Under the pieces are notes generated by a model, which ran no database searches, was not told where the DNA came from, and was given only the letters and a program-made list of their open reading frames with translations. Positions 8,249-45,395 of a DNA stretch of 64,000 nt are shown piece after piece; the first letter of the stretch is position 1, and every line of letters begins with the position of its first letter. The DNA is from Octopus vulgaris (Eukaryota). A program made the position numbers and the translations under genes. The DNA lies in NCBI GenBank assembly GCA_951406725.2, contig OX597832.1, positions 9,548,001 through 9,612,000 on the forward strand, read 5' to 3'.

Positions 8249-9295
8249 TAACTACATAATCATCAACACAGTCAGATGAATCCCCAAAGAAATGTTCTCT
8301 ACTTAAACAATCTCTTCTCAAGCACCTCCTGCTTTTGAGATAGGTTTATGTATATCACACAAATCTATAAGGAAGTTAAATATTGGTTTCAAAGAAAGTC
8401 TCATGATTGCAAATTTGGGGTGGGACTGCCTACATTTATATTGACTGGATACTCTTGAATTACATGTTGCATTAATAACTTAACAACAAATGTCAATGCC
8501 GAATTCAGCGATATTCGAAATCTGTGCGTAAGCAGACCAAACTAAATTTCATACGACCATTTTGTCGTTATGTTATATAAATTCTATCGATCCGCATCTC
8601 TCCTGTAAATGAAATAATCACACTCGATACTTTCTCGATGCTGTAATAAAATTTAGAAATATAGTGATTGCTGTATTTCCGTAGGTAACGTCTATATTTA
8701 AATCCCACCAGATCCTAAAGTTCCATATATATTTTTGCGTTTTATAGAATACCTACCTGCAAGCAATAACATCAATTTTATCATCGTTTTCCTCTTCGTA
8801 AGATTTCTATCTAACCTAAAATACATTCTTATTTTAGTAGTTTACGAGTGCAATCAAAGTAAAGCCGCTTTAGGTATAATGTTTATACGCTTCTGGCTCT
8901 GCATCTAATATTTGATATATTTTATACAAGAAATAAACATACTATTTAGGTTTGTCTATGATATAAAATCACAAAATTCAGGATAATGCATATGTAGTAT
9001 CTACTGGTGTTTAATTTCAGTCGATTAAGAGAAGTGGTAGATGTAAGGTAAACTTACCTGTGATTCTATTAATATTAGCTTGACTTCTTAAGAATCTATG
9101 ACCATTTGAATGAACAAGAATCAAGAGAGTGTTACGGTTACACCACTAATTTAACTCAACAAAACTTTTGTTGTGGCAAACAACCTCTAGTGAGAAGTGG
9201 ACTGTTCAAATACTGATAAATAGAACGACCCGATTTTATGGTTGTGGCAGTGTGATTTTTGAGATCATTACAATTCCGTTGAAGTAAGTGTGATA

Positions 9296-9506
9296 CTCTT
9301 TTTCTCTTTACTCTTTTACTTGTTTCGGTCATTTGACTGCGGCAATGCTGGAGCACCGCCTTTTAGTCGAGCAACTCGACCCCGGGACTTATTCTTTGTA
9401 AACCCAGTACTTATTCTATCGGTCTCTCTTGCCGAACCGCTAAGTGACGGGGACGTAAACACACCAGCATCGGTTGTCAAGCAATGCTAGGGGGGCAAAC
9501 ACACAC

Positions 9507-9559
<53 letters not shown>

Positions 9560-9729
9560 CATATATACTACGGGCTTCTTTCAGTTTCCATCTACCAAAT
9601 CCACTCACAAGGCTTTGGTCGTCCGAGGCTATAGTAGAAGACACTTGCCCAAGGTGCCACGCAGTGGGACTGAACCCGGAACCATGTGGTTGGTAAACGA
9701 GCTACTTGCCACACAGCCACTCCTGCGCC
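9296..9729 (-). mobile_element. SINE-A, full length
   Basis: Reverse complement of 7839-8248 over its full length. Confidence 0.9.
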
Positions 9730-9744
9730 TATTGTTATAATTGT

Positions 9745-11244
9745 TAAAATTTATCCACTCGTGGGTGTACCACGTTTCGTTCCTCGCTGAAATTGCTCTT
9801 TTGACTAGTGAGTTTTTGTTGTTTTTTTTCTTTTTTCTTCCCACTTATGAGAGAGCCGGAGAGAAGTATAATGGAGACCGAACCAGCAAATAGCCACAGC
9901 TATGCAGCTGCAACTGTCAGAGGAATATATGTAGAAACAAGGAAGTAAAAATTGAGCAAAGAAACCTGAAAGAAAGCGGCAAGATATTCGAAAAGAAAGG
10001 CCATAACCTTAAATTGACGCCCCCAGTTTACTTAACAAATGGAGAGTGCGACAAGAAAATTGAAATAGCTACGATAGAAGACATTGAAAAGTGTTTAAAA
10101 GAGGCCAAAAAGGTCACCATGTTCATAACAAGAGGAAGAAGATATGGCACAGTGGAAGTGCAATTTGCAAGCGAAGAAGAAGTGATAAAGGCGGTGAGCT
10201 GTTGACGGGACAGTGATGTCCAGAGCACTGAAGGTACTGAGAAGGAGGATTGAAGTGATTGCGATGGAATACATTGAGAGGTGTTTGGAGGAGGTCAGGA
10301 GGGTCACCACGTTTATAGCGGGAGGAGGACGATGTAGCACGGTAGAGAGGCGATTCGCAAGCGAGGAGATAGCGGTGAAGCAAACCACTGATCCCATAAA
10401 GACGGAAGAGTGGGTGCTCCTACCAACATGCTGTGACGGGCGAGTTGTCAGAGTGGGGGAGGGAAAAGTGCCACCAGAATTGGATGAAGAATGGTTGGTT
10501 GCCGCAGTAATGTACAATATGGAGGAGGATGCGAAGATCCTGAGAATAGCAAGAGCGAAAAAGGTGAACTGCTGGGGATGCATAATCGAGATGGCAGTTC
10601 GGACAGCTGTGAGTGACATGAGTGAGATTCCGGAAGAAGTAGTATTACCCGAAGGTATGAGATTGAGAGTGGTGGTGGAGGGCGAGCCTCCTATATGCTG
10701 CTTGTGTGCTGAGAGGGGCCACATGAAGTCGAGGCGCCCCCGGAGAGAGAAGGAGCAGCAAGTGAGGAAATCTGAGGAGCAGGAGAGAGCGAACGATGTG
10801 GTCCAGGAGGATGGGAGGGAAACAGCGGGAATAGAGGAGGAATCTGAAGTGGTTAAGGGGCGAAAAATGAGGAAAGGACCGGGCTCTCAGCTGGAGACAT
10901 GGGGAAGGAGGGGGAAATCGGAGAAGGAGGTCGTAAAGGTGGTTGAGTGTGGGGGGTCATGGGGGAAGTTGAAAAGGAGGTCAAGATAGAGTTGTATGGG
11001 TAACTATATTTTGCAGAATACAACTATGCCTCTAATAATCCCTGTGGAATCAAAATCTTCCTTGGGTTTATGTGATTGGGCGGAGTGGTAATTAGGTTTT
11101 GGGGTTGGCTGATATGGAAAAAAAAATATTGGTTAAATTTGGGTGTATGCTGTTATTTAGAATGTATTCATGCATGTAGACAATTGTAAAGTGTGTATAG
11201 GTGTTAATCGGGCGAAGCAATGAAAAACGTTTTTGCTTTAAGAA

Positions 11245-24538: not shown

Positions 24539-24953
24539 ATTTCTTCATTGCCCACAGGGGTGTAAACATAGAGGGGACAAACAAGGACAGACAAACGGAT
24601 TAAGTCGATTACCTCGACTCCAGTGCGTAACTGGTACTTATTTAATCGACTCCAAAAGGGTGAAAGGCGAAGTCGACCTCTGTGGAATTTGAACTCAGAA
24701 CGTAGCGGCAAACGAAATACCTATTTCTTTACAACCCACAAGGGGCTAAACACAGATAGGAAAAACAAGGACAGACAAACGGATTAAGTCGATTATATCG
24801 AGCCCAGTACGTAACTGGTACTTAATTTATCGACTCTGAAAGGATGAAAGGCAAAGTCGACCCCGGCGGAATTTGAACTCAGAACGTAGCAGCAGACGAA
24901 ATACGGCTACGCATTTCACCCGACGTTCTGACGCATCTGCCAGCTCGCTGCCC
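24539..24953 (-). mobile_element. SINE-C tandem dimer (full copy 24721-24953 + 5'-truncated copy 24539-24720)
   Basis: Direct repeat of about 180 bp with junction GAAATAC|CTATTTCTTT on the plus strand. Confidence 0.85.
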
Positions 24954-44460: not shown

Positions 44461-44966
44461 GCAGCTAGGTGGGTAGGTAGGTGGGTAGAATACGTCAGAA
44501 AATGAACTATTGGATCACAGTACACATATATCAAACATGGCCGTCGTTTACTGTTTGAGATATAAAAAGTAAAGAACATCGTCATTTCTAAGTAGGATGT
44601 TATAGCACCCTACTTAGCGTTCTGCTTAATGCAATTGTTCATCAAGGCGAAAATTATGCTCTGTTATTAGTATTCCATATATATTTAACAAGTGCATGGC
44701 ATTATCGATTCTGTATTGCCACTGACATGTTTATAGCATATTGAAATATCTACTTTTAAATAGTTCATTAACTCTCTGCGTTTGGCTATTTTAAGTGTTG
44801 AATAGTTCATCAGCTCTTGTACGTGGCAGCATTCAACCTTATAGTCACTGCTCTTTCTGGTTAATTAATCGCATCTCCTCTTGTGCTTATTCAAGAATGA
44901 AATGATAATTCTATTTGCAGACCTAAACTGACGTAATCATACCTGCCACAATTACAATTTGCATTT

Positions 44967-45395
44967 CATAACACCTGGAATTTGATCCAAGAGTTTGTAT
45001 ACGTTTTATTCTAATAAGAGGTGCATGTTTAAATATTCTGTTAATGATTATATTTATCTAAATACAGTATTGTTCGCTAAAACAAAGTGTTACTCCTATA
45101 CTCTCCTATACTCATAACACCTGGAATTTGATCCAATAGTTTGTAGGAGTTTTATTTCATAAGAGATGCATGTTTAAATATTCTGTTAATGATTATATTT
45201 ATCTAAATACAGTATTGTTCGCTACAGCAAAGGGTTACTCCTATACTCTCCTATACTCATAACACCTGGAATTTGATCCAAGAGTTTGTAGGAGTTTTAT
45301 TTCATAAGAGATGCATGTTTAAATATTCTGTTAATGATTATATTTATCTAAATACAGTATTGTTCGCTACAGCAAAGTGTTATTCCTATATTCTC
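44967..45395. repeat. 145-146-bp tandem repeat, about 3 copies
   Basis: CATAACACCTGGAATTTGATCCAA starts at 44967, 45113 and 45258. Confidence 0.92.

What the first reader, a model, noticed from the sequence alone, without database searches (positions are those of the whole stretch)
10053..10380. Apparent ADAR hyper-edited retroelement RNA fixed in the genome next to its unedited twin
Seen: 10053-10190 and 10243-10380 align without gaps over 46 codons. By hand count there are 42 differences: 27 are A(copy 1)->G(copy 2), versus 5 G->A, 3 C->T, 3 T->C and 4 transversions. Of 63 As in copy 1, 26 of 47 with a non-G 5' neighbour became G, but only 1 of 16 preceded by G did. Established: ADAR A-to-I editing is read as G, is strand-specific and avoids As with a 5' G, and coleoid cephalopods edit RNA extensively. 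Inference: copy 2 derives from a hyper-edited transcript that was reverse-transcribed and integrated. That would be a heritable RNA-editing-to-DNA route that recodes retroelement proteins (K->R, K->E, I->V, T->A, Y->C).
Basis: partly seen in the sequence, partly recalled or inferred. Interest (0 to 1): 0.92.

Follow-up and report, generated by a model that had tools for sequence, protein, structure and literature searches.

The report
RNA-editing scars fixed in retroelement DNA
About 800 bases of a retrotransposon copy carry dozens of one-strand A-to-G changes with the fingerprint of the RNA-editing enzyme ADAR, the changes are inherited and shared with related organisms, and several other copies of the family were hit independently, so edits made on RNA appear to have been written back into this animal's genome again and again.

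Summary
The counts are exact. The signal is larger than reported: the tract runs 10191 to about 10990, with 65 of 231 As changed to G against two ordinary copies, versus 8 of 108 T>C. It ignores codon position (11/39, 17/62, 15/54), avoids 5'-G even at silent sites (0/14 vs 13/34), and has no G-rich sister copy (best 80%). Contigs from another study of the same organism, and from two other organisms, hold the junction and the Gs. The element is an ORF cassette inside the LTR of a small TRIM-like LTR retroelement. Nine of 93 screened cassette copies carry such sense-strand tracts, none the reverse; pooled 5' preference is T .53 > A .36 > C .27 > G .10, ADAR's order. Best reading: ADAR-edited element RNA was reverse-transcribed and fixed in the germline; the 'twin' is an unedited template joined to it. 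The dsRNA partner, inosine in RNA and any protein function are not shown. The route is known for exogenous retroviruses; this scan noted a similar case in an ERV of another genome (e1-8036428).

The parts
9169..9300 (+). Left end of the LTR (starts TG) with TATA-like promoter and start of the cassette's 5' untranslated region
   Evidence: Homology to other copies begins sharply at the TG at 9169 with unrelated flanks upstream; in L002, L005/L027 and L007 the same TG follows a polypurine tract
9302..9730 (-). High-copy short repeat (SINE-like; label is my inference) inserted later into the cassette's 5' untranslated region
   Evidence: Inverted matches to other window copies (I1-I5); splits the element homology; no strand-biased copies among 30 and 26 screened fragments
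9730..10190 (+).
   Evidence: A>G 0 of 131 family As; 2/12, 1/30, 0/39 per 100-nt bin against two natural copies; alignment
10191..10242 (+). Start of unit U2, already A>G shifted; junction with U1 at 10190/10191; U2 restarts about 180 nt upstream of where U1 ends
   Evidence: junction bridged by single contigs in runs of three organisms (records 5, 19, 27)
10243..10380 (+).
   Evidence: 22 family-A sites read G; 17/39 in bin 10250-10349
10191..10990 (+). Unit U2: sense-strand A>G hypermutated tract, about 800 nt, 3'-truncated
   Evidence: 79/288 against column majorities; 65/231 against two natural copies, T>C 8/108, 5' T 11/20, A 35/75, C 7/36, G 3/68
10198..10989 (+). Open frame of 263 codons, stop to stop: RNA-binding-like domain, one zinc knuckle (10696-10737, last Cys missing), Glu/Lys-rich tail
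   Evidence: no Pfam hit for this copy; zf-CCHC in relatives; Atlas look-alikes are CCHC and ZCCHC3-like RNA-binding clusters at 0.87-0.92 (a lead only)
11020..11200 (.). Unrelated high-copy repeat that follows the truncated element; not shifted
   Evidence: A>G 71 vs G>A 90 summed over hits, incl. microsatellite hits; 0 of 7 flagged

Best explanation
The locus is the LTR of a small non-autonomous LTR retroelement that carries a zinc-knuckle ORF cassette (shown by anatomy in relatives). The element's sense RNA became double-stranded over several hundred bases, most likely by pairing with antisense RNA from other copies (inferred; partner not found). An ADAR deaminated about a quarter to a half of the accessible adenosines (inferred from signature). 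The RNA was still packaged and reverse-transcribed by a helper element, inosine was copied as G, and the DNA integrated in the germline and was fixed before the split from two related organisms (fixation shown; reverse transcription inferred). The unedited 'twin' arises because reverse transcriptase copied the edited RNA first and then jumped, about 180 nt out of register, to an unedited RNA (inferred, about 0.6; later recombination between two genomic copies would look alike). The same thing happened independently to at least 8 other cassette copies.
For: Direction and strand: A>G 65/231 vs T>C 8/108; median copy 3.3% A>G. Neighbours: pooled 5' T 95/180, A 194/539, C 61/226, G 42/405; 3' G highest at 129/385 vs 0.25-0.30, matching human ADAR 5' U>A>C>G, 3' G first (PMC3113232, passages). 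Blind to coding: silent 13/34 vs replacement 26/61 outside 5'-G, p=0.83; 5'-G avoided at silent sites 0/14, p=0.01. Tracts of about 200-1250 nt with sharp edges, e.g. L035 14/36 then 0/41, 0/41, 0/28; L210 14/29 then 0/30, 0/40, 0/31. Independent events: U2 and L026 share 4 other changes, like any pair, overlap in A>G sites 32 vs 27.5 expected from context, p=0.065, and are not each other's closest relatives. Always the element's sense strand, on either genomic strand; controls T>C, G>A, C>T flag 0 of 92. Genomic and old: (0 of 30 A>G sites listed as changed in organism B, while 5 of 17 other changes are still in the family state). LTR anatomy: TG...CA, PBS-like motif, polypurine tract, one 5-bp target duplication with a mismatch. 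Edited/unedited tandem pairs recur in L171, L208, L211, L091. Four adenosine-deaminase-domain loci in the genome.
Against: No dsRNA partner found: an unshifted cassette folds no better than shuffles (z=-1.57), no inverted arm lies near 7 shifted copies even in a three-letter search, and the one long inverted arm seen (L205, 675 nt) covers the 3' end, which is unshifted in 42 of 42 tails. No RNA-level evidence. No autonomous helper found: no RT or integrase in 13 kb downstream of two PBS-like sites. The window copy has no right end, so its own target duplication cannot be checked. 3' preference is weak. In organism B's contig 4 of 20 differences were not listed. For human L1, ADAR1 restriction was reported to be editing-independent (PMC5224506, passages).
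Confidence: 0.83

Rival explanations
1. Reverse-transcriptase hypermutation without ADAR: during plus-strand synthesis under low dATP the enzyme puts G opposite T, giving sense-strand A>G bursts in some copies.
For: Would also be strand-specific, codon-blind, limited to retroelements and one-off per copy. A-to-G hypermutation during retroviral replication is in print (Kim et al. 1996, title only, reference list); the dNTP mechanism is recalled, not read.
Against: The 5' order T>A>C>G with 3' G highest is ADAR's; no T>C copies in 92, which the same imbalance should give in minus-strand synthesis; sharp tract edges and independent copies hit at the same contexts.
Confidence: 0.07
2. A DNA-level process after insertion (error-prone polymerase with an A>G bias after A or T, transcription-linked adenine damage, or GC-biased conversion) hit these stretches.
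For: No RNA partner found; A after T or A is the most changed class.
Against: As after C are changed at 27%; the adjacent U1 is untouched (0/131) with the edge exactly at a template junction; T>C is not raised, which excludes GC-biased conversion; the strand follows the element, not the chromosome; neighbouring repeats are unshifted.
Confidence: 0.05
3. Copy 2 belongs to a diverged G-rich subfamily shaped by selection (Glu/Asp codons keeping GA), or polarity is reversed and the other copies are G>A hypermutated.
For: L026 is also G-rich and is the best hit of its own shifted part to U2 (75%).
Against: No G-rich sister above 80%; no codon or silent-site bias; U2 and L026 are not sisters; shifted tracts occur in several subfamilies and end abruptly inside a copy; 84 of 93 copies are unshifted.
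Confidence: 0.03
4. Assembly or sequencing artefact, such as edited cDNA reads in the assembly.
For: Clustered mismatches can be sequencing errors (PMC2873906, passages). Run types are guessed by the tool and only contigs were laid.
Against: One contig of a different study spans 10131-10520 with 3 differences, and contigs of two other organisms span the junction with 5% divergence.
Confidence: 0.01

Closest known systems
ADAR-type A-to-G hypermutation in proviral DNA of exogenous retroviruses: BLV 3' LTR U3 (PMC8025556, passages); RAV-1, avian leukosis virus, HTLV-2, STLV-3 (as cited in PMC8586724, passages)
   Same: Clustered sense-strand A>G in an LTR region, read as ADAR editing of the RNA genome copied into DNA
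   Different: Those are somatic or cell-culture proviruses, rare (3 BLV proviruses, about 70 bp). Here the tracts are 200-1250 nt, germline-fixed, shared by three organisms, in a non-autonomous element without retroviral genes, and in 9 of 93 copies examined
APOBEC DNA editing of LTR retrotransposons (PMC4866542, passages and section 6)
   Same: Host deaminase leaves strand-biased mutation clusters in individual genomic copies; same logic of pairwise and strand controls
   Different: G>A on DNA during reverse transcription, vertebrates only; that screen called other cluster types negligible and invertebrates devoid of editing. Here A>G, RNA-type context, and A>G cannot turn a sense codon into a stop (follows from the code)
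A-to-I editing of repeats in coleoid transcriptomes (PMC9068888, passages)
   Same: ADAR acts widely on repeat-derived RNA in non-neural tissues; a role against transposons is suggested
   Different: RNA-level only in the passages seen; no record of edits fixed in genomic copies
TRIMs, non-autonomous LTR retrotransposons (definition in PMC10886601, passages)
   Same: Short LTRs (about 150 nt), PBS, short interior (about 470 nt), polypurine tract, no mobilisation genes
   Different: One LTR is swollen by one or more 1.5-2 kb zinc-knuckle ORF cassettes; related cassettes also sit beside hammerhead-bearing repeats
   Same: ADAR-like A>G fixed in genomic DNA, confined to an LTR region, recurring in several copies
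   Different: An endogenous retrovirus in another genome; unchecked AI note, not support

Membership tests
ADAR-type hyper-editing signature | A>G only, on one strand of the transcript | tested here: met
   65/231 vs T>C 8/108; controls 0 of 92
ADAR-type hyper-editing signature | 5' neighbour order U>A>C>G | tested here: met
   Pooled .53.36.27.10; in U2 alone T 11/20, A 35/75, C 7/36, G 3/68; reference PMC3113232
ADAR-type hyper-editing signature | 3' G preferred | tested here: inconclusive
   G highest (.34) but others .25-.30; no test of significance run
ADAR-type hyper-editing signature | Dense bounded clusters, blind to reading frame | tested here: met
ADAR-type hyper-editing signature | A long double-stranded RNA substrate covering the tract | tested here: inconclusive
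   None in cis; antisense pairing in trans untested
ADAR-type hyper-editing signature | Inosine at these sites in RNA; dependence on ADAR | not testable with these tools
   No run on record as RNA
ADAR-type hyper-editing signature | Host encodes ADAR-family deaminases | tested here: met
   PF02137 over cut-off at four loci; which are ADAR, ADAD or ADAT was not resolved
LTR retrotransposon (TRIM-like) | LTRs with TG...CA ends | tested here: met
   L004, L007, L034; the window copy has only the TG end
LTR retrotransposon (TRIM-like) | Primer-binding site and polypurine tract | tested here: met
   TGG-starting motif after the CA in L004, L007, L017, L034, L106; purine run before the second TG in L002, L005, L007; the matching tRNA was not looked up
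LTR retrotransposon (TRIM-like) | 4-6 bp target-site duplication | tested here: inconclusive
   One element with both ends read: 5 bp with one mismatch in L034
TRIM in the strict sense | Under 1000 bp and non-coding | tested here: not met
   True of the backbone only; cassettes add 1.5-4 kb and open frames up to 496 codons
APOBEC-edited retroelement | Sense-strand G>A clusters in the derived copy | tested here: not met
   Family state is A; G>A control flags 0 of 92
LINE ORF1 in an intact non-LTR element | Followed by an endonuclease-RT ORF2 | tested here: not met
   No shared downstream ORF in 20 loci of 10 kb; 1 of 15 long ORFs scanned had an RT hit, of Penelope type by motifs that I recall
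Penelope-like element | Hammerhead motif in a pseudo-LTR next to the unit | tested here: not met
   None in the window or in 6 loci of its subfamily; present just downstream of the ORF in L200, L201, L205, L215 and L204, other subfamilies

The most novel reading that the evidence does not exclude
In this lineage ADAR is a germline mutator of retroelements on a scale comparable to APOBEC in vertebrates: roughly one in ten copies of this LTR cassette family entered the genome pre-edited, the genome thus holds a datable fossil record of germline ADAR activity and specificity, and because A>G cannot create stops the route seeds heavily recoded but open reading frames (e.g. 496 codons in L199).
Probability: 0.5. 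Interest if true: 0.87.

Novelty: new variant of a known kind. Interest (0 to 1): 0.76.

Why it matters
A-to-I editing is normally treated as erased with the RNA. Here it appears fixed in the germline, repeatedly, in an invertebrate-type genome where a published screen logic expected no deaminase scars. It makes testable whether ADAR meets retroelement RNA in the germline, whether it restricts or diversifies it, and whether ADAR specificity has changed over time, all from genome sequence alone. It also warns that hyper-editing pipelines and repeat classifiers can mistake such genomic copies for RNA editing or for separate subfamilies.

Tried and rejected
Protein homolog search of the shifted frame: 946 candidates, none at E<=0.001; uninformative. 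Pfam on the two window frames: none. Rfam on 6 loci: only microsatellite-driven miRNA and snoRNA matches, all below gathering. Sequencing runs: no RNA holder listed; run X4, a guessed RNA run, has a contig over 10604-11119, not taken as expression. No listed contig of X2 covers 10845-11144; a hole proves nothing. First guess that the ORF is a LINE ORF1: rejected. Penelope-type origin for the window's subfamily: not supported. Cis hairpin as ADAR substrate: not found. L064 and L065 looked shifted against the wrong subfamily; against nearer copies L064 (=L180=L211) stays moderately shifted (34/192), L065 (=L182) does not (14/332). L083 was a weak flag and was not confirmed later. Near misses not counted: L086 (22/200), L198, L075, L214, L205, L213. 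A tree with A/G merged was attempted but the call returned nothing; distances were used instead. Helper element not found. Three original retroviral papers were not held. Literature searches that found no report of germline-fixed ADAR-type tracts in invertebrate retrotransposons: (concerned Penelope elements; one search failed); the library lacks most subscription papers, and the species table and note S4 of PMC4866542 were not read.

Full report
Observation. The two stretches align without gaps over 138 nt with 42 differences: 27 A>G, 5 G>A, 3 C>T, 3 T>C and 4 transversions; 1 of 16 As after G and 26 of 47 after other bases read G in copy 2. Both skews exceed chance (p=1.1e-4 and 8.6e-4).

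Polarity and extent. The window lies at G000:C19:9548001-9612000 in a 2.8-Gb genome; the region is an interspersed repeat (61 matches from 40 of 212 candidates scored). I aligned 30 distinct copies with the two window units. U1 (9730-10190) is ordinary: 0 of 131 family As read G. U2 (10191 to about 10990) has 79 of 288. No G-rich sister exists among the 40 of 148 candidates scored; the best other copy is 80% identical.

Not selection. A diverged functional subfamily could mimic 5'-G avoidance by conserving Glu and Asp codons. It does not fit: changes fall 11/39, 17/62 and 15/54 on codon positions 1-3; silent and replacement sites are hit alike (13/34 vs 26/61, p=0.83); As after G are spared at silent sites too (0/14, p=0.01). 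In unshifted copies silent sites change about twice as often as replacement sites.

Genomic and inherited. Of 24 runs listed I laid 4. A contig of organism A from a study other than the top holder's spans 10131-10520 with 3 differences; contigs of organisms B and C span the same junction with 20 differences and a deletion of about 18 nt. Of 30 A>G sites outside that deletion, none is among the 16 listed differences of B (4 of 20 were not listed), whereas 5 of 17 other changes of U2 still show the family base in B. So the A>G burst is older than the split and older than part of the ordinary divergence. Run types are tool guesses and these are contigs, not raw reads.

Recurrence. From 230 cassette stretches in the fetched loci, 100 were distinct; 93 could be screened (7 flagged) and 92 after flagged copies were barred as comparators (8 flagged: U2, L119, L156, L171, L199, L208, L211, L091). 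L026 dropped out for too few sites but was flagged (62/127; 93/285): 9 of 93 in all. The same rule flags 0 of 92 for T>C, G>A or C>T. The rate is not unbiased, because several queries were themselves shifted copies and only top candidates are scored. Pooled over 8 copies the 5' neighbour gives T 95/180, A 194/539, C 61/226, G 42/405, and 3' G is highest (129/385); unflagged copies give 0.066, 0.043, 0.036, 0.029. This is the order measured for human ADAR1 and ADAR2 (PMC3113232, passages). Tracts have sharp edges. U2 and L026 are independent: 4 shared other changes, site overlap explained by context, and not nearest relatives. Short SINE-like fragments gave 0 of 30 and 0 of 26, with low power; cassette tails 0 of 42.

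What the element is. The frame resembles zinc-knuckle RNA-binding proteins (zf-CCHC in relatives; Atlas leads). No ORF2 follows in 20 loci of 10 kb. Instead the homology starts at a TG at window 9169, preceded in some copies by a polypurine tract; the cassette ends at a TATA-like/AATAAA signal, then 70-100 nt ending in CA, in several copies followed by a primer-site-like motif. L004, L007 and L034 show the bare backbone: LTR of about 150 nt, primer site, short interior, polypurine tract, second LTR with cassette(s); L034 has a 5-bp target duplication with one mismatch. This is TRIM-like anatomy (definition from PMC10886601, passages), so the element moves through RNA and needs a helper, which I did not find. 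A SINE-like repeat later inserted at 9302-9730, and the window copy has lost its right end.

Mechanism. Shown: one-strand, context-dependent, codon-blind, bounded A>G tracts in several independent copies of an LTR-type element, fixed in DNA. Inferred: sense RNA paired with antisense RNA, was edited by an ADAR, and was reverse-transcribed with I read as G. The strand fits editing of the RNA template before copying; deamination of the minus DNA strand would read T>C. The genome has four adenosine-deaminase-domain loci. The twin arrangement, an unshifted 5' half joined 180 nt out of register to a shifted 3' half, is what a template switch between two co-packaged RNAs would give (template switching as described in PMC4189041, passages); shifted/unshifted tandem pairs recur in L171, L208, L211 and L091. 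Later recombination between genomic copies is not excluded. Against or open: no dsRNA partner in cis, no RNA data, weak 3' preference, and no evidence that any recoded frame is expressed. U2's frame is open for 263 codons but cut from its 5' part and lacks the last knuckle Cys.

Comparison with what is known. ADAR-type A>G clusters are known in proviral DNA of exogenous retroviruses: BLV, in U3 of the 3' LTR, in three proviruses (PMC8025556, passages); RAV-1, avian leukosis virus, HTLV-2 and STLV-3 (seen only as cited in PMC8586724). Germline-fixed deaminase scars are known for APOBEC G>A in vertebrate LTR elements; that study called other cluster types negligible and 19 invertebrates devoid of editing (PMC4866542, passages and section 6; its supplements, which list the species and may bear on novelty, were not read). 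Coleoid ADARs edit repeats widely in RNA (PMC9068888, passages); whether this genome is a coleoid was not tested by my calls. ADAR1 restriction of human L1 was reported as editing-independent (PMC5224506, passages). Penelope anatomy was checked against PMC8557442 and PMC11167929 (passages). Nine searches (listings and abstract starts) found no report of germline-fixed ADAR-type tracts in invertebrate retrotransposons. This scan holds one similar, unchecked note on an endogenous retrovirus in another genome (e1-8036428) and none on this genome or sequence.

Verdict. Real, genomic, recurrent, and best explained by ADAR editing written back by reverse transcription (0.83). It works like retroviral ADAR hypermutation; it differs in being germline-fixed, long, frequent and in a non-autonomous LTR element. 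New variant of a known kind; interest 0.76.

Noticed in passing
L004 841-993, L007 532-1155+, L034 9444-5393 (minus); window 9169-10990: A TRIM-like element (150-nt LTRs, about 470-nt interior) whose LTR can hold one or several 1.5-2 kb zinc-knuckle ORF cassettes in tandem, each ending at a TATA-like/AATAAA signal; in L007, L034 and L036 only the second LTR has the cassette. The protein search gave 11,253 first-look candidates. No description was found in my searches.
   Followed up: partly
L200 (8278, minus), L201 (6273), L205 (6325), L215 (6422), L204; L203 7143-5683: Related cassettes end directly in hammerhead-ribozyme-bearing repeats, and one abuts a reverse transcriptase ORF of Penelope type, so the cassette seems to ride on both LTR and Penelope-type elements.
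   Followed up: partly
L205 6125-6799 and 8069-8742: A 675-nt, 98% identical inverted arm covers the 3' third of a cassette ORF and its tail; a long hairpin if transcribed.
   Followed up: no
L199 7909-6422 (minus): A copy shifted at about 40% of As over 1250 nt that keeps a 496-codon open frame with an ATG.
   Followed up: partly
Cassette tails, 42 copies: The last 480 nt of the cassette are unshifted in 42 of 42 screened copies, including copies shifted further upstream; unexplained.
   Followed up: no
L191 1320-2305: Mild T>C excess (16/126 vs A>G 9/270), below the flag threshold; might be an antisense-strand case.
   Followed up: no
window 10045-10052 and 10191-10242: The stretch missing from U1 begins at about the point where U2 starts; coincidence or a trace of the same recombination event.
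   Followed up: no
window 24551-24904 and 44966-45395: Tandem repeats of period 184 (1.9 copies) and 145 (3 copies, 95%).
   Followed up: no
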